From positions 41,690 through 105,689 of the forward strand of contig VGOZ01000001.1 of assembly GCA_016875715.1 (NCBI GenBank): a stretch of 64,000 nt of DNA, read 5' to 3'. The notes below the pieces were generated by a model, which saw only the letters and a list, made by a program, of their open reading frames with translations, was not told where the DNA came from and searched no databases. Shown here piece after piece: positions 8,483 through 34,596 of this stretch. A program made the translations under genes and the position numbers. The stretch is from Chloroflexota bacterium (GTDB taxonomy: Bacteria > Chloroflexota > UBA6077 > FW602-bin22). Numbering within the stretch: the first letter of the stretch is position 1; every line of letters starts with the position of its first letter.

Positions 8483-9459
8483 TCGCTCGGGTCGTCGCCC
8501 CCCTCCTCGCCATCATTCTGCTGGTGCTCGTGGTGCGCCAGATCGACATCGACGAAGCCGTCGAGGTCATCACCAGGGCCGATTTGCGACTCCTCGCCGT
8601 AACCTGGCTGATCGTGGTTCTTAGCCAGGGCATGCGTGCGCTGCGCTGGCGCGTCATTCTCGAGGCGAGCGGGAGCACACCCGTCACGCCGGTCTTCTGG
8701 GCGAACCTTGCCGGCTACTGCGGAAACTACGTTCTGCCCGCACGCGCCGGGGAGGCGATCCGATCGGCGCTCGCGAGCCGTGCGCTGGCGCGCCCTCTGG
8801 GGTTCGTGCTCGCCACCGCGATGACGGAACGGATCATCGACGTTCCGGTACTCGTCCTCTCCGCCGCAGCGGCCGGTCTCCTCCTCGAAGCGATGCCGGC
8901 GGAAGTCGGCGGCGCGCTCGGCGCTATGGCGATCGCCGCGGTCGCGGGGGTGCTCGGCCTCACGATCGCGCCGCGCCTGCTCACCCTGGGGCGCCGCATC
9001 CTGGCTCGCGCGCCCCTCATCGCGCAGCACGCGATGCGCATCGATCCTCACCTGGAGCGGCTGAGCGAGGGCTTCACCGCACTGCACGATGGGCGCCGCC
9101 TGCTCGCGTTCGCCGGGTTCACCGCCGTTGTCTGGTCGATCGATATCCTTCTCGGGCAGGTCCTCGCCTGGGCGATGGGTTTCACCCTGAGCATTCCGCT
9201 CACCATCCTGCTCATCGCCAGTCTCGGTCTCTCGAGTGCGCTGCCCTCGACACCGGGCTACGTGGGCATCTATCAGTTCGTGGCCCTGATCGTCCTCGTG
9301 CCGTTCGGCCTCTCGGCGAGTCAGGCGGTCGCCTATGTGGTCCTGCTGCAGTTGCTCGCCTACGCGGTCGTGGTGCCCTTTGGGGTTGTGGGGATGTGGC
9401 GCCTTGGCGGAGGGTTCGTGACCGGGCGCAACCTCAGGGAGATCACAGCCAAGGACTGA
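8479..9459 (+). CDS. flippase-like / lysylphosphatidylglycerol-synthase-TM-type (UPF0104) integral membrane protein
   Basis: The GTG at 8479 overlaps the upstream TGA (GTGA). VIARVVAPLLAIILLVLVVRQIDIDEAVEVITRADLRLLAVTWLIVVLSQGMRALRWRVIL is the family-typical start. The protein is polytopic throughout. Confidence 0.65.
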   Translation: MIARVVAPLLAIILLVLVVRQIDIDEAVEVITRADLRLLAVTWLIVVLSQGMRALRWRVILEASGSTPVTPVFWANLAGYCGNYVLPARAGEAIRSALASRALARPLGFVLATAMTERIIDVPVLVLSAAAAGLLLEAMPAEVGGALGAMAIAAVAGVLGLTIAPRLLTLGRRILARAPLIAQHAMRIDPHLERLSEGFTALHDGRRLLAFAGFTAVVWSIDILLGQVLAWAMGFTLSIPLTILLIASLGLSSALPSTPGYVGIYQFVALIVLVPFGLSASQAVAYVVLLQLLAYAVVVPFGVVGMWRLGGGFVTGRNLREITAKD

Positions 9460-32500: not shown

Positions 32501-34596
32501 GGGTAGGAGGAGAAGACCTCGACAAGCTCGAATCCAAGTCTCTCGGCGAAGAGCAGCTCGTAGTACCTGGAGGTGAGCGGGTAGCGCTGCGGTAGGCGTG
32601 GGATCGTGCCATAGAGTCGGTTCGAGAAGAAGAGGACGTAGTCGGTGCGCGCCAGCGTGGAGGCGATGTGCTGGAGCTTCCGCTCGTCGTCGGCCTCGTA
32701 GAGGTTGAGGGGTACCTGCCGATAGCCGAACCGCCCCATGTCCAGTTGCTGGCGCTGATCGGACAGCGAGCGCACCGCGACCGGGAACCCCTCCTCCCAG
32801 TGCTCGTTTGCCAGTGTCGAGCCCCGCGGCAAGTTATCGTAAATCCAGCGCGATGCCTGAACCGCGGTGTGTTCGCCGGCGTACACGGCCTGGTACGCCA
32901 CGCCGTAGAACGCGGTAATGCCCAGGACGACCGCGATGACCGCCATGGCTCCCTGGCGAGGCCGAGTCCAGGCCCGGCCTGCCTCATCGAATTCCAGTTC
33001 CCGCCGGGGGACCGGCCCGGGCGACGGTCCCCCGACCGCAATCGTCGGGTCGCGCGGCACAACGGCCGCGGGCACGGCCGCGACCTCCTCGATCGCAAGA
33101 TCCTCGAAGAGCGAAAGACCCTTCAGTTCGGCCCACCGCCTCGTCTCCTCGTCCACGATCGTGACGGGCGCGCGCTTCTCCTCCGCCAAGAGTCCGAAGA
33201 GACCGAGGCCTTTGACTTCGGCCCACCGCCTCGTCTCCTCGTCCAGGGTGACCGGGTCTCCCGGGAGCACCTCGCTCCGCGTCGTCCCCGCAGGTACGGC
33301 GATTGGGGCCGCGGGCGTCTCCTCCGCCGCGATCTCTCGCTCGACGTCGTCCCACGCCGTGTCCGCCTCGCCCACGGCTCGCGGCGTGCGCATTGTCGCC
33401 CACCGGTACAGACTCCAGAGAGCGAACGAGGCGGCCACCGCCAGAACCGGGGTGATCGGCAGCATGTAGCGCAGGAACTTGGCGTGGAAGCTCCCTGTGA
33501 TGAGGAAGTACGGAAGGATCAGGGAGAGCAGGAGGAGATCCGCGTTCGTGGGCTGGCGGATGGCTCGCCAGATCAGGAAAGCGAGTCCGGCGAACATCGC
33601 CAACCCGAGTCCCGGTCCGACGCCGAAGAACAGCAGATTCTCGAAGAAGTACCAGTACGCGGGACGATTGGCGTACTGGCGTGTGTACGGCACGTCGGCC
33701 GAGCCGCGCACCATCGCGTTCTGCTCGAAGATATTGGCGAGGAAGGTCTTCGAATCGATGATCGCGTACGGCTGGAAGATGACGAACGCGGCAAGCGCGA
33801 TCAGGGCCATAGCAATCGCGCGACTGGCCACTGGGCCGAGCGAGCGAGTGGCGCGACCGACCCAGGACCAGCCGGGCGCGACCTTGTCGTCGGCTCGGGC
33901 CATGCGGAGCGCCTGCGCCAGCAGGACCGGCGCGAGCACCGGCGACGCACTGATCTTCGTCGCGAGCGCCATTCCCGCGACGAAGGCCGACCCGATCGTA
34001 TGCCTCCGTTCGCCGGAATGCAGTCCGCGCGCGGCGAGGAGCACCGCGCCGGTGACCAGAAACGTCATTGGCGTGTCGGACGCGTAGAAGTGACTCAGTT
34101 GAATGTGTATGACCGAGAAGGCCACGAACGCCGCCGCCAGGAGGCCGACGCGACGGCCGTACAACTCGCGCCCCAGCAGGAATGTCAGAGCAACCGTGCC
34201 CAGATCGAACAGTCCTGAGAGCGCTCGCCCGACGAAACGAAGTCCGAACGTGTCTGCACTCAAGGAAAGCGAATCGGCGAGACGCAGGAGATCGGCGACT
34301 GCCGAGACGACCCAGTGGACGAATCGGAGGACATAGAAGATCAGCGACCCGTAGGCGAAGGAGCGCGGGTTGAGCGAGCTGTCCGGCTCAAGAAGGTGGC
34401 CCACGTCGATGGGGAAAGACAATCGGACGCCGTCGGTGACCATGAAGATGTGGCGCTCGTCGGGATGGAAGAGATGGCCTCCATCCCAGTTGAGATCGGA
34501 GAATCGAAGAATCGCGCCCACAATCAGGATCAACGGGAGCGCGAATGGTGCGAAACGGGTTATGGCCTCGCGACCCGAGCGAGCCCAGCGGGGCAT
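29590..34596 (-). CDS. roughly 1668-aa fusion: GT39/TIGR03663-like N-terminal half + linker with duplicated 30-aa module + Chlor_Arch_YYY domain
   Basis: The likely start is the ATG at 34596 ([15 protein letters not shown]), preceded by TAGGAGGAA. The N-terminal half has [19 protein letters not shown]. The C-terminal half has [41 protein letters not shown]. Its C-terminal tail ([16 protein letters not shown]...YIYMGDLER) is paralogous to the downstream gene (LPTLLGWEFHEQQWRG...YVFVGRTER). Confidence 0.7.
   Translation of the reverse strand: [1668 protein letters not shown]
33127..33245 (-). repeat. exact 29-nt direct repeat 90 nt apart (in-frame duplication of a 30-aa module)
   Basis: ttcggcccaccgcctcgtctcctcgtcca occurs at 33127-33155 and at 33217-33245. 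It encodes (T/I)(L/V)DEETRRWAE(V/L)KGL(G/S)LF twice, 30 residues apart. Confidence 0.95.

What the first reader, a model, noticed from the sequence alone, without database searches (positions are those of the whole stretch)
9443..34596. 25-kb single-strand array of giant GT-C-like membrane proteins built around the function-unknown Chlor_Arch_YYY + TIGR03663 pair
Nine consecutive minus-strand genes, one of them decayed, encode eight very large polytopic proteins and one single-anchor protein.
- A: 29590..34596, about 1668 aa.
- B: 27188..29593, 801 aa.
- C: 25323..27191, 622 aa.
- D: 22153..25245, 1030 aa.
- E: 19919..22072, 717 aa.
- F: 16046..19855, 1269 aa.
- G: 15057..16043, 328 aa.
- H: 12230..15109, about 930-959 aa.
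- I: 9443..12233, disrupted.

Seen directly in the sequence:
- B and the C-terminal half of A carry the YYYxG motif region (PPVDPWLSGSTISYYYFGY and [19 protein letters not shown]).
- D carries HHDES...MMHGP.
- A, D, F, H and I all have a D-E dipeptide in the first loop after TM1 (HPDER, HHDES, WADEA, IIDEL, HIDEY), as GT-C enzymes of the PMT/ArnT type do.
- The junctions are GTGA (A/B), ATGA (B/C), a 2-nt gap (F/G) and GTGA (H/I). This argues for co-translation.

Established knowledge: TIGR03662 and TIGR03663 are described as co-occurring, Chloroflexi/Archaea-restricted families of unknown function. TIGR03663 has N-terminal similarity to dolichyl-phosphate-mannose protein mannosyltransferases.

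Inference: this is a multi-paralog, lipid-linked-sugar-dependent extracytoplasmic glycosylation or glycan-polymer assembly machine that has never been characterised. A polyprenyl-P-sugar-synthase-like GT2 and a flippase-like protein lie 0-4 kb away at 5758-9459.
Basis: partly seen in the sequence, partly recalled or inferred. Interest (0 to 1): 0.9.

Follow-up and report, generated by a model that had tools for sequence, protein, structure and literature searches.

The report
Conserved Chloroflexota array of GT-C glycosyltransferases
A 25-kb run of nine same-strand genes in an uncultured Chloroflexota bacterium encodes a conserved set of giant membrane glycosyltransferase-like proteins, including an unstudied family (DUF2298) that is predicted here to have the same fold as the enzymes that attach sugars to proteins and cell walls outside the cell.

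Summary
Nine consecutive minus-strand genes lie at 9443-34596, with the stated motifs and 4-nt overlaps, and gene I is a real pseudogene.

**What the proteins are**
- A is a double module: a PMT_2/GT22-like N-half fused to DUF2298/TIGR03662.
- B is DUF2298.
- D is TIGR03663 plus an NHL propeller.
- C is a degenerate short paralog of D.
- E is a divergent ArnT/PMT_2-type protein.
- F, H and I are PMT_2 plus PA14, with NHL in F.
- G is a rare single-anchor protein.

**New here**
- A confident AlphaFold model of B matches only GT-C enzymes in the PDB (DPY19, AftA, AglB, PglB, ALG12, AftD). Its C-terminal domain resembles the AglB globular domain.
- The gene order A-B-C-D-F recurs across Chloroflexota.
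- Dehalococcoidia keep a minimal set: ftsY, DUF2298, Agl23-like, flippase-like, FAD oxidoreductase.

- TIGR03663 is now Agl23. It has been studied in Haloarcula hispanica and reported as a lipid-linked-glycan flippase.
- The neighbouring GT2 is a generic match, is not conserved in relatives, and is a deletion allele in this window.

**Verdict:** a lipid-linked-sugar-dependent extracytoplasmic glycosylation system is the best reading, but it is inferred. It is a new variant of a known kind, of moderate interest.

The parts
29590..34596 (-). Gene A, 1668 aa. It is a double GT-C protein: a PMT_2/GT22-like N-half with HPDER at aa 44, fused to a DUF2298/TIGR03662 C-half (YYYY at aa 977-980, [18 protein letters not shown] at aa 1114).
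   Evidence: PMT_2 4e-9, Glyco_transf_22 1e-7 and DUF2298 6e-113. TIGR03662 2e-161, 539 bits against a 300 cut-off. The C-half keeps 54 of 69 family-invariant residues, including the acidic and His residues (motif positions). Fusion proteins of the same type (1500-1860 aa) lie just upstream of B in 21 of 51 related loci.
27188..29593 (-). Gene B, 801 aa. A stand-alone DUF2298 / Chlor_Arch_YYY protein with about 16 TM helices and a C-terminal alpha/beta ectodomain.
   Evidence: TIGR03662 1e-172. More than 3600 homologs, all named ones Chloroflexota. AF2 model pLDDT 90.2, pTM 0.93. The top PDB matches by Foldseek are all GT-C enzymes, and the C-terminal domain matches the AglB globular domain. 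Positive-inside tally 13 versus 6.
25323..27191 (-). Gene C, 622 aa. A short, degenerate Agl23-like paralog with PVEAR in place of HDES and no HGP motif.
   Evidence: TIGR03663 9e-7, below its cut-off. PMT_2 25.6 bits against 26.1. blastp to D. Equivalent genes of about 600 aa follow B in 16 other loci. They keep PLxxxEA but vary the Asp position.
22153..25245 (-). Gene D, 1030 aa. An Agl23-family (TIGR03663) membrane domain with invariant H62-D63-E64-S65 and H87-G88-P89, then an alpha/beta domain and a six-bladed NHL propeller (aa 745-1030).
   Evidence: TIGR03663 8e-89, 298.6 bits against a 126 cut-off. PMT_2 35.3 bits and NHL 5e-49. 1208 homologs, many named Agl23. AF2 pLDDT 89.9. The propeller matches TRIM71/Thin NHL with TM-score 0.9. 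hhalign against the E family gives 94.5%.
19919..22072 (-). Gene E, 717 aa. A divergent ArnT/PMT_2-type GT-C with an N-terminal soluble domain of about 190 aa. D273 is invariant in the PHVQDS loop.
   Evidence: E itself has no Pfam hit. 40 of 56 members of its homolog alignment hit PF13231, and several are named GT39/ArnT-like. E is present in close relatives (L088, L089) but absent from the 80 more distant loci.
16046..19855 (-). Gene F, 1269 aa. An N-terminal extension of 3-4 TM segments, a PMT_2 core with WADEA at aa 185, a PA14 domain and an NHL propeller.
   Evidence: PMT_2 36 bits, PA14 1e-16 and NHL 3.5e-28. F-type genes follow D in L007, L008, L011, L024 and L027.
15057..16043 (-). Gene G, 328 aa. 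An acidic cytoplasmic tail (DLPDVPDDDD), one membrane anchor, a Pro/Thr-rich linker of about 40 aa and a C-terminal beta-rich domain of about 170 aa with an invariant WGR.
   Evidence: No Pfam or NCBIfam hit. Only 17 representative clusters among 1.84 billion proteins. Alignment A4. Conserved in position in the closest relative.
12230..15007 (-). Gene H, 925 aa. A PMT_2 core with IIDEL and a C-terminal PA14-like domain.
   Evidence: PMT_2 33.6 bits and a weak PA14 hit. The start at GTG 15007 comes from gene calls on four contigs and from the 924-aa ortholog.
9443..12233 (-). Gene I, a pseudogene of an H-type PMT_2 + PA14 protein. It carries a 1-nt insertion at about 11002 and an in-frame TAG at 10550-10552.
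   Evidence: blastp to H in three pieces. PMT_2 47 bits in the first piece and PA14 in the last. An intact 928-aa ortholog is in L088. The lesions appear in the window and four other contigs that cover gene I, and the second lesion is polymorphic.
8479..9459 (+). A flippase-like membrane protein (LPG_synthase_TM / TIGR00374), convergent with gene I. It is a recurrent partner of the DUF2298-Agl23 pair.
   Evidence: PF03706 5e-39. TIGR00374 65.8 bits against 43.2. Homologs occur in 17 of 80 related loci and lie directly after the Agl23-like gene in Dehalococcoidia.
5758..6612 (+). A GT2 glycosyltransferase in a variant allele. Its membership in the system is doubtful.
   Evidence: Glycos_transf_2 9e-10. 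Only weak generic NCBIfam hits. No homolog in the related loci. A 48-bp deletion removes its stop codon.
35392..36423 (+). A trans-polyprenyl diphosphate synthase, divergent from A. Its position is conserved in closer relatives. A possible link to the lipid carrier is only a guess.
   Evidence: polyprenyl_synt 5e-62. The same position is seen in L001-L003 and in L089, where B is 58% identical.

Best explanation
The array is a chromosomal envelope-glycosylation gene cluster that is conserved across Chloroflexota. Eight of its nine genes encode polytopic GT-C-type proteins, and one of those (I) is now dead.

**Proposed mechanism (inferred)**
1. Sugars are loaded onto a polyprenyl phosphate at the cytoplasmic face.
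2. The lipid-linked sugar is moved outward by the flippase-like TIGR00374 protein, by the Agl23-type proteins, or by both.
3. On the outer face, each GT-C module uses acidic residues in its first core loop to transfer the sugar to an extracytoplasmic acceptor. These are DE in A (N-half), D, F and H; D273 in E; and E129/D150 plus the TIxE...DxHPH loop in the two DUF2298 modules.
4. The appended NHL propellers, PA14 domains and the AglB-like C-terminal domain of DUF2298 hold the acceptor.

**Core and accessories**
- The conserved core is DUF2298 + a short degenerate Agl23-like protein + Agl23-NHL + at least one ArnT-like GT-C.
- E, G, H and I are lineage-specific additions that broaden specificity and turn over by gene birth and death.

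**Acceptor**
I think surface proteins are somewhat more likely than a wall polysaccharide. Candidates are S-layer-type proteins or secreted proteins with Pro/Thr-rich linkers, such as G, the 719-aa protein at 833-2992 and the LysM protein at 36531-37805.

**Shown versus inferred**
- Shown: family membership, predicted fold, motif conservation, synteny and pseudogenisation.
- Inferred: donor type, topology, acceptor and catalysis.
For: **Family assignments**
- PMT_2 is above its cut-off in A, D, F, H and I, and TIGR03662/TIGR03663 are well above their cut-offs.
- E's homologs are PMT_2/ArnT-like.
- hhalign of the D family against the E family gives 94.5%.

**Fold**
- The B model is confident (pLDDT 90.2).
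- Its nine best PDB matches are all GT-C enzymes that use polyprenyl-phosphate-linked donors (DPY19, AftA, AglB, PglB, ALG12).
- The isolated AglB C-terminal domains match with TM-score 0.45-0.55.

**Residues and topology**
- Invariant acidic and His residues sit in loops predicted to face outward. They are retained in the second DUF2298 module of A.
- DE and HGP are invariant across 59 D-type proteins.

**Synteny**
- An Agl23-like gene lies within 6 kb downstream of B, on the same strand, in 41 of 53 loci.
- The order A-B-C-D-F recurs.
- The full A-I array is present in the closest relative.
- The whole neighbourhood is syntenic at 58% identity.
- The flippase-like gene recurs.
- Isoprenoid-related neighbours appear in two contexts: a polyprenyl synthase here, and an FAD amine-oxidase-family gene in Dehalococcoidia.

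**Published work**

**Candidate acceptors**
Pro/Thr-rich candidate acceptors lie in and beside the array.
Against: - No biochemical datum exists for any protein of this locus or for any DUF2298 protein.
- DUF2298 has no detectable sequence relationship to any GT-C family or PDB entry. Its assignment rests on one predicted model, with global TM-scores of only 0.3-0.5.
- The membrane domain of D was not tested by fold, because NHL hits filled the Foldseek list.
- The only experimental activity reported for the Agl23 family is flipping, not transfer.
- No convincing polyprenyl-phosphate sugar synthase is conserved next to the array.
- The adjacent prenyl synthase is a trans-type enzyme, not the usual cis-type carrier-lipid synthase.
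- No promoter or terminator evidence defines an operon.
- Gaps of 63-80 nt separate C/D, D/E and E/F.
Confidence: 0.6

Rival explanations
1. This is a cell-wall glycopolymer assembly line, like the mycobacterial Emb/Aft set. Each GT-C paralog would add a particular sugar or linkage to a growing extracytoplasmic polysaccharide. The PA14 and NHL domains would act as carbohydrate-binding modules that hold the polymer.
For: - Many GT-C paralogs lie in series, as with EmbCAB and AftA-D.
- AftA gives the best TM-score (0.53) and AftD is also among B's structural neighbours.
- PA14 is a carbohydrate-binding type of domain and is present in F, H and I.
- An epimerase/dehydratase, a sulfotransferase and a GT2 lie nearby.
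- A D-Ala-D-Ala carboxypeptidase gene in the window suggests a peptidoglycan wall that could carry such a polymer.
Against: - The sugar-modifying neighbours are not conserved with the array.
- The phyletic link of TIGR03662/TIGR03663 is to Archaea, and the one published Agl23 study concerns glycosylation of proteins.
- B's C-terminal domain resembles the acceptor-peptide-binding domain of AglB.
- No polymerase, chain-length or export genes typical of polysaccharide loci were seen.
Confidence: 0.3
2. The Agl23-type proteins (D, and perhaps C) are not transferases. They would be flippases or scramblases for lipid-linked glycans, feeding the true transferases (the DUF2298 and ArnT-like modules) on the outer face.
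For: - NCBIfam names the family 'flippase activity-associated protein Agl23'.
- Purified Haloarcula Agl23 flips M5GN2-PP-Dol in proteoliposomes and rescues yeast rft1 deletion (PMC11182771).
- The tight DUF2298-Agl23 pairing (41 of 53 loci) fits a supplier-user pair.
- C-type paralogs have lost the Asp of the DE dipeptide yet are conserved, which argues for a non-catalytic role.
Against: - D carries a PMT_2 domain above the cut-off, and its family matches ArnT-like proteins at 94.5% by hhalign.
- H-D-E-S and H-G-P are invariant in 59 sequences, at the position of the GT-C catalytic loop.
- D has a large NHL ectodomain that a flippase would not need.
- A separate flippase-like gene (TIGR00374) accompanies the pair in many genomes.
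Confidence: 0.3
3. There is no single pathway. The array would be a tandem-duplication cluster of independently acting GT-C paralogs that stay adjacent by descent, not because they cooperate.
For: - F, H and I are paralogs of each other, as are C/D and A(C-half)/B.
- E, G, H and I are lineage-specific.
- I is being lost.
- Intergenic gaps of 63-80 nt and the absence of operon signals leave room for separate promoters.
Against: - The order A-B-C-D-F joins non-paralogous families (DUF2298 with Agl23-type). It is kept across classes that share only 33-40% identity.
- Four junctions overlap or nearly abut.
Confidence: 0.2
4. The proteins are not glycosyltransferases at all. They would be, for example, transporters or envelope scaffolds that merely share a helical-bundle architecture.
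For: No enzymology exists, and DUF2298 has no sequence link to known enzymes.
Against: - Foldseek separates GT-C hits (probability 0.87-1.0) sharply from transporters (probability below 0.1).
- PMT_2 hits lie above curated cut-offs.
- Invariant acidic loop residues are present.
Confidence: 0.05

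Closest known systems
Agl23 of Haloarcula hispanica (TIGR03663 family)
   Same: D scores 298.6 bits on TIGR03663 against a cut-off of 126. It keeps the family's DE and HGP motifs and its conserved Arg residues. It lies close to a TIGR03662/DUF2298 gene: B is two genes upstream, and an Agl23-like gene (C or D type) lies within 6 kb downstream of the DUF2298 gene in 41 of 53 related loci.
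   Different: D is bacterial and carries an extra alpha/beta domain and an NHL propeller, giving about 1000 aa. It sits beside a degenerate paralog (C) and several further GT-C genes. Flipping activity was reported for the archaeal protein only and is untested here.
STT3-type oligosaccharyltransferases (AglB, PglB; GT66)
   Same: B has a polytopic GT-C membrane domain followed by a C-terminal alpha/beta ectodomain. By Foldseek it matches full-length AglB and PglB, and also the isolated AglB C-terminal domains. A TIxE tetrapeptide lies in a large outward loop. The resemblance to the PglB TIXE motif is recalled from memory and is a lead, not a test.
   Different: There is no STT3 Pfam hit and no PDB sequence hit. 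No WWDYG motif is present. B has about 16 rather than 13 TM helices, and its motif order differs. Global TM-scores are only 0.27-0.30.
ArnT / bacterial PMT-type GT-C enzymes (GT83/GT39; Pfam PMT_2)
   Same: A (N-half), D, F, H and I hit PMT_2 above its cut-off, and E's relatives do as well. An acidic DE or D residue lies in the first loop of the core. Soluble domains are C-terminal.
   Different: The proteins are much larger and carry NHL and PA14 ectodomains. F, H and I have extra N-terminal TM segments. One module is fused to DUF2298. The acceptors are unknown.
Three-component periplasmic glycosylation systems (GtrA/GtrB/GT-C; ArnC/ArnE-F/ArnT), named from established knowledge
   Same: The logic is the same: a GT-C transferase on the outer face plus a small flippase-like membrane protein. 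A GT2 is nearby.
   Different: The flippase-like protein belongs to TIGR00374/LPG_synthase_TM, not the GtrA family. The GT2 is a generic match, is not conserved and is a deletion allele. There are eight GT-C genes instead of one.
Mycobacterial Emb/Aft arabinosyltransferase set (GT53, GT85, AftD)
   Same: Several large GT-C paralogs are clustered, each with a carbohydrate-binding-type ectodomain. AftA and AftD are structural neighbours of B.
   Different: There is no sequence similarity. The families, the ectodomains (NHL, PA14) and the phylum all differ.

Membership tests
TIGR03662 / Pfam DUF2298 (Chlor_Arch_YYY) | HMM score above the curated cut-off | tested here: met
   B scores 576.2 bits and A's C-half 539.2 bits, against a cut-off of 300.25. 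PF10060 gives 388 and 379 bits against 27.8.
TIGR03662 / Pfam DUF2298 (Chlor_Arch_YYY) | YYYxG motif in a strongly hydrophobic protein of 700-900 aa (or in a fused copy) | tested here: met
   ISYYYFGY at B158-165 and NYYYYGQ at A977. S159, Y160, Y161, G164 and Y165 are invariant in 62 sequences.
TIGR03663 / Agl23 | HMM score above the curated cut-off | tested here: met
   D scores 298.6 bits against 126.25. C scores only 28.3 bits, so C is NOT a member by this criterion.
TIGR03663 / Agl23 | Invariant DE dipeptide, HGP tripeptide and two Arg residues near the N-terminus | tested here: met
   For D: D63-E64, H87-G88(-P89), and R51, R58, R110 and R128 are invariant in alignment A3. For C: not met, with PVEAR and no HGP.
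TIGR03663 / Agl23 | Flipping of lipid-linked glycans across a bilayer | not testable with these tools
   Reported only for purified Haloarcula Agl23 (PMC11182771).
GT-C glycosyltransferase superfamily | GT-C fold of the membrane domain | tested here: met
   For B: the model (pLDDT 90.2) gives a Foldseek top nine that are all GT-C enzymes, with E from 2e-6 to 0.016 and probability 0.97-1.0. AftD follows at rank 12, and non-GT-C hits have probability below 0.1. For A (N-half), D, F, H and I this follows from PMT_2 hits above the cut-off. For E it follows from its homologs. D's membrane domain was not resolved by fold search.
GT-C glycosyltransferase superfamily | Conserved acidic residue(s) in the first extracytoplasmic loop of the core | tested here: met
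   - DE in A, D, F, H and I.
- D273 is invariant in the E family.
- E129 and D150 are invariant in DUF2298, in a loop predicted to face outward.
- C-type paralogs keep only the Glu.
The outward topology is inferred, not shown.
GT-C glycosyltransferase superfamily | Use of a polyprenyl-phosphate-linked sugar donor | not testable with these tools
   Context only: a flippase-like gene and prenyl-related neighbours.
STT3 / AglB / PglB oligosaccharyltransferase (GT66) | STT3 family HMM match | tested here: not met
   No PF02516 hit for B or A, or for 48 DUF2298 relatives at E<=1. The DUF2298 profile finds no PDB chain.
STT3 / AglB / PglB oligosaccharyltransferase (GT66) | WWDYG motif at the start of the C-terminal domain | tested here: not met
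   A regex for WW[DE][YWF]G finds nothing in any array protein. DUF2298 instead has a conserved LGWxxHExQWRG.
Three-component (Gtr/Arn-type) glycosylation system | Dedicated polyprenyl-phosphate glycosyltransferase (GtrB/ArnC/DPM1-like GT2) | tested here: inconclusive
   The GT2 at 5758-6612 scores 24 bits on ArnC against a 529 cut-off and shows only generic GT2 similarity. It is absent from related loci and is a deletion allele.
Three-component (Gtr/Arn-type) glycosylation system | Small flippase partner | tested here: inconclusive
   A flippase-like TIGR00374/LPG_synthase_TM protein is present and recurrent. It is not a GtrA or ArnE/F homolog, and its substrate is unknown.

The most novel reading that the evidence does not exclude
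DUF2298 (Chlor_Arch_YYY) would be a previously unrecognised GT-C family with an STT3-like two-domain layout: a membrane catalytic domain with a TIxE...DxHPH loop, plus an AglB-like acceptor-binding ectodomain. It would be the missing transferase of an archaeal-type surface (S-layer or secreted-protein) glycosylation pathway shared by Archaea and Chloroflexota. Agl23-type proteins would be its obligate partner, and the extra ArnT-like/NHL/PA14 paralogs would be specificity modules. The Chloroflexota array would then be the bacterial counterpart of archaeal Agl pathways. It would also offer a direct way to settle whether Agl23 is a flippase, a transferase or both.
Probability: 0.25. Interest if true: 0.75.

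Novelty: new variant of a known kind. Interest (0 to 1): 0.5.

Why it matters
- **Chloroflexota envelopes.** This is an abundant and mostly uncultured phylum whose envelope chemistry is poorly known. A phylum-wide gene set with up to nine GT-C modules is a strong candidate for the machinery that builds or decorates that envelope.
- **A fold for DUF2298.** The analysis gives DUF2298 a concrete fold assignment and a short list of residues to mutate. The family has thousands of members and no literature.
- **The Agl23 question.** The locus frames a testable question about Agl23, for which only flippase activity has been reported even though it has the hallmarks of a GT-C transferase.
- **Limits.** The general logic is already well known: lipid-linked donor, flippase, then a GT-C on the outer face. 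Nothing here departs from it.

Tried and rejected
1. **DUF2298 against solved structures by sequence.** Neither a single sequence nor the profile gave a meaningful hit.
2. **Profile-profile links of DUF2298 to other families.** hhalign against the ArnT-like E family gave 30% and against the Agl23 family 2%. A Pfam scan of 48 DUF2298 proteins at E<=1 found no other GT-C family. The fold is therefore the only link.
3. **Fold search with the full-length D model.** The 50 listed rows were all NHL or other beta-propeller domains, so the membrane domain could not be compared.
4. **Promoter and terminator scans across the array.** No promoter-like sites were found, and the only terminator-like sites were weak and lay inside genes.
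5. **Pfam and NCBIfam on G and its 14 homologs.** Nothing was found.
6. **Programmed frameshift in gene I.** Rejected, because the ortholog is intact without a shift, a stop codon follows, and a different second lesion occurs in other assemblies.
7. **Assembly error as the cause of I's disruption.** Rejected, because the same insertion is present in the window and all four other contigs that cover gene I.
8. **Horizontally acquired island.** Rejected. GC content is even, the flanks are housekeeping genes and synteny extends to relatives.
9. **Literature on DUF2298, TIGR03662, PF10060 and 'YYY domain'.** Only incidental mentions or the unrelated Y_Y_Y domain turned up. The primary Agl22/Agl23 paper (PMID 32706435) is not held.
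10. **Look-up of the 959-aa version of H.** Not on record, because callers use the 925-aa start.

Full report
**Source and setting**

The window matches metagenome contigs at about 99.9% identity. One is an ENA assembly (ERZ27247963), and the others come from three Logan runs. The closest named relatives of its proteins are Chloroflexota MAGs. GC content is even, at 0.62-0.70. The genes beyond the array are housekeeping genes: HemN-like, PrfB, a GHMP kinase, KsgA, CCA-adding enzyme, PcrA/UvrD and a D-Ala-D-Ala carboxypeptidase. The array therefore lies in the chromosomal core and is not an island.

**Checking the observation**

- All nine minus-strand ORFs are present at the stated coordinates.
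- Independent gene calls agree on A 1668 aa, B 801, C 622, D 1030, E 717, F 1269 and G 328.
- H is called at 925 aa from GTG 15007, which leaves a 49-nt gap after G. The 924-aa ortholog supports this start.
- Hydropathy gives 8-23 hydrophobic segments for the eight large proteins.
- The alignment of G's family shows one conserved anchor preceded by variable hydrophobic repeats.
- One correction: in F, H and I the DE dipeptide follows three or four extra N-terminal segments. It is the first loop of the PMT_2 core, not the loop after TM1.

**Gene I is a recent, real pseudogene**

- It is a paralog of H in three pieces.
- The closest relative (GCA_964536925.1, 84-93% protein identity) has the complete A-I array, with I intact at 928 aa.
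- Against that ortholog, the window has a 1-nt insertion at about 11002.
- The window and all four other contigs that cover gene I share this insertion.
- A second lesion is polymorphic. The window and two assemblies have an in-frame TAG at 10550-10552, and two others have a 1-nt deletion at 10560.
- Two different disabling alleles at one site argue for relaxed selection, not for sequencing error or programmed frameshifting.

**What the proteins are**

- **Family hits.**
  - A is a PMT_2/GT22-like N-half fused to DUF2298/TIGR03662 (539 bits against a 300 cut-off).
  - B is DUF2298/TIGR03662 (576 bits).
  - D is TIGR03663 (298.6 bits against 126) plus an NHL propeller.
  - F is PMT_2 + PA14 + NHL.
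  - H and I are PMT_2 + PA14.
  - C is sub-threshold for both TIGR03663 and PMT_2.
  - E and G have no hits.
- **Paralogy.** All-against-all blastp groups the genes as A(C-half)~B, A(N-half)~F, C~D, D~F (through NHL) and F~H~I.
- **E.** Its 85 homologs are largely annotated GT39/ArnT-like. Of 56 members of its homolog alignment, 40 hit PMT_2. Asp273 is invariant in the first core loop.
- **D and E are related.** The two families align by hhalign at 94.5% probability over the PMT_2 core.
- **G.** It belongs to a very small family, with 17 representative clusters among 1.84 billion proteins. Its layout is an acidic tail, one anchor, a Pro/Thr linker and a beta-rich domain with an invariant WGR.

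**DUF2298 is predicted to be a GT-C enzyme**

- It has no sequence relationship to any solved structure or other family, and no functional literature.
- An AlphaFold2 model of B, built from 62 sequences, is confident (pLDDT 90.2, pTM 0.93).
- In the Foldseek search of the PDB, the nine best matches are all GT-C glycosyltransferases:
  - DPY19 C-mannosyltransferase, three entries (best E 2e-6);
  - AftA, two chains (better TM-score on target 0.53);
  - AglB, two entries;
  - PglB and ALG12.
- AftD follows at rank 12. Transporters further down the list have probability below 0.1.
- B's C-terminal domain separately matches the isolated C-terminal globular domains of AglB (3vu0 with TM-score 0.50-0.55; 3vgp with 0.45).
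- Taking the helices from the model, K+R counts in short loops are 13 on one side and 6 on the other. This topology places three regions outside:
  - the TEKPME...PPxDPW...YYY loop;
  - the WWWR...TIxEFPFFSFxxGDxHPH loop;
  - the C-terminal domain.
- The invariant charged residues are E105, E129, D150, E301, D311, H313, H315 and D368. They are kept in A's second DUF2298 module.
- The TIxE tetrapeptide recalls the PglB TIXE motif. That is a memory-based lead only. WWDYG is absent and there is no STT3 HMM hit, so DUF2298 should not be filed under STT3.

**Synteny**

A pattern scan of GTDB representative genomes returned 80 loci, nearly all labelled Chloroflexota. I compared the window's proteins with the ORFs of those loci.

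- An Agl23-like gene starts within 6 kb downstream of the DUF2298 gene, on the same strand, in 41 of 53 loci with enough sequence.
- An A-type fusion lies directly upstream in 21 of 51 loci.
- The order A-B-C-D-F recurs in several Anaerolineae and other lineages at only 33-40% identity.
- C-type genes of about 600 aa follow B in 16 loci. They keep PLxxxEA, but the Asp position varies and HGP is missing. C therefore represents a conserved, probably non-canonical partner.
- E, G, the GT2, DUF4915 and the sulfotransferase have no counterpart in these loci. E is present in relatives with 58-87% identity.
- Dehalococcoidia carry a compact arrangement: ftsY, DUF2298, Agl23-like, flippase-like (TIGR00374), FAD amine-oxidase-family oxidoreductase.
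- In the 58%-identity relative, the whole neighbourhood is syntenic: HemN, a LysM/CarboxypepD_reg protein, the polyprenyl synthase, a small acidic ORF, then A-F.

**What is already known**

NCBIfam now names TIGR03663 'flippase activity-associated protein Agl23'. According to PMC11182771:
- it suppresses yeast rft1 deletion;
- the purified protein flips M5GN2-PP-Dol in proteoliposomes.

The original genetic paper (Lu et al. 2020, PMID 32706435) is not held. The pair is therefore not wholly 'function unknown'. DUF2298 still is.

**Mechanism: committed view**

I read the locus as an extracytoplasmic glycosylation system of the familiar GT-C kind.
1. Sugars are carried on polyprenyl phosphate.
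2. They are moved outward by the TIGR00374 protein, by Agl23-type proteins, or by both.
3. GT-C modules transfer them to acceptors through acidic residues in their loops.
4. The NHL, PA14 and AglB-like ectodomains bind those acceptors.

The family, fold, motif and synteny steps are shown. Donor, topology, acceptor and catalysis are inferred.

For the acceptor, I lean towards surface proteins.
- Agl23's published link is to S-layer glycoprotein glycans.
- B resembles protein-modifying DPY19, AglB and PglB, as well as AftA.
- Pro/Thr-rich linkers occur in G, in the secreted 719-aa protein at 833-2992, and in the LysM protein at 36531-37805.

A wall-polysaccharide assembly line of the Emb/Aft type remains a serious rival.

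D has the hallmarks of a transferase: an invariant HDES/HGP, a PMT_2 core and a large ectodomain. A separate flippase-like gene also accompanies the pair. I therefore expect D to be a transferase whose lipid-binding groove may also scramble. This is untested.

**Weaknesses**

- The GT-C assignment of DUF2298 rests on one predicted model, with modest global TM-scores.
- The membrane domain of D was not compared by fold, because NHL hits filled the output.
- No conserved polyprenyl-phosphate sugar synthase was found.
- The adjacent prenyl synthase is a trans-type enzyme.
- Operon structure is undefined.

**Verdict**

Its core survives, but three parts need correction: the claim of complete novelty, the role given to the GT2, and the idea of a single 'machine'.
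- The locus is a new variant of a known kind of system.
- Its main value is as an entry point to DUF2298 and to the Agl23 flippase-or-transferase question.

Noticed in passing
window ~6423 (GT2 5758-6612 / DUF4915 6582-7562, + strand): The window and one Logan assembly (L086) carry a 48-bp deletion between 9-bp direct repeats (CGCGATGCG), relative to L084 and L087. The deleted piece holds the GTGA stop/start junction. As a result the GT2 gains an out-of-frame tail of about 68 aa (284 aa against 232), and DUF4915 loses its native start (385 aa in the undeleted allele).
   Followed up: yes
window 10550-10563 (gene I): The second lesion of pseudogene I is polymorphic among assemblies: an in-frame TAG in some and a 1-nt deletion with neighbouring substitutions in others. 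This indicates ongoing decay within the population.
   Followed up: yes
window 833-2992 (-): A 719-aa secreted protein with a signal peptide, a mucin-like Thr/Pro/Ser-rich linker of about 175 aa, and a C-terminal domain containing WWIVGNEPN, a glycoside-hydrolase-like NEP motif. It has no Pfam or NCBIfam hit. It is a candidate O-glycosylation acceptor.
   Followed up: partly
window 36531-37805 (+): A protein with a predicted membrane anchor, a Pro/Thr-rich region, a CarboxypepD_reg-like domain, a LysM domain and weak similarity to the Kustd1514 S-layer glycoprotein family. Its position upstream of A is conserved in a relative whose B is 58% identical.
   Followed up: partly
L031, L036, L043, L047, L054, L058, L059, L073, L077 (about 9000-17500 in each): Most of these Dehalococcoidia genomes share the compact arrangement ftsY, DUF2298, Agl23-like, flippase-like (TIGR00374), FAD amine-oxidase-family oxidoreductase; some show only part of it (L036 has no flippase-like hit, and L043 and L073 lack the ftsY-sized gene upstream on that strand). 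Pfam was run on a subset only (ftsY in L031, L036, L054, L059; oxidoreductase in L031, L043, L054, L073). FtsY also precedes the DUF2298 gene in L090. The oxidoreductase might act on the isoprenoid carrier, which is speculation.
   Followed up: partly
window 25323-27191 and C-type genes in L007-L079: The short Agl23-like paralog that follows DUF2298 keeps an invariant Glu (PLxxxEA). It has Asp at the DE position in only about 4 of 17 sequences and lacks HGP. It is a conserved, probably non-catalytic or differently acting GT-C paralog.
   Followed up: partly
window 10000-34000: A strong positive AT skew (+0.1 to +0.2) on the + strand runs across the whole array. It reflects T-rich codons for hydrophobic residues on the minus coding strand, and it marks the block of membrane-protein genes.
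   Followed up: no
window 35090-35410 (+): A small acidic ORF of 106 aa overlaps the start of the polyprenyl synthase gene. An equivalent 112-aa gene is at the same place in L089. Its function is unknown.
   Followed up: no
L035 and L083: Two MAGs labelled Proteobacteria and Nitrosomonadaceae carry typical Chloroflexota-type DUF2298 loci. In L083 the order is epimerase, ArnT-like, A, B. This is probably contig mis-binning.
   Followed up: no
window 19919-22072 (E, aa 1-190) and 15057-16043 (G, aa 165-328): Both proteins carry beta-rich soluble domains with no family hit. In E the domain lies on the N-terminal side of the first TM segment. No similarity between the two domains was detected by blastp.
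   Followed up: no
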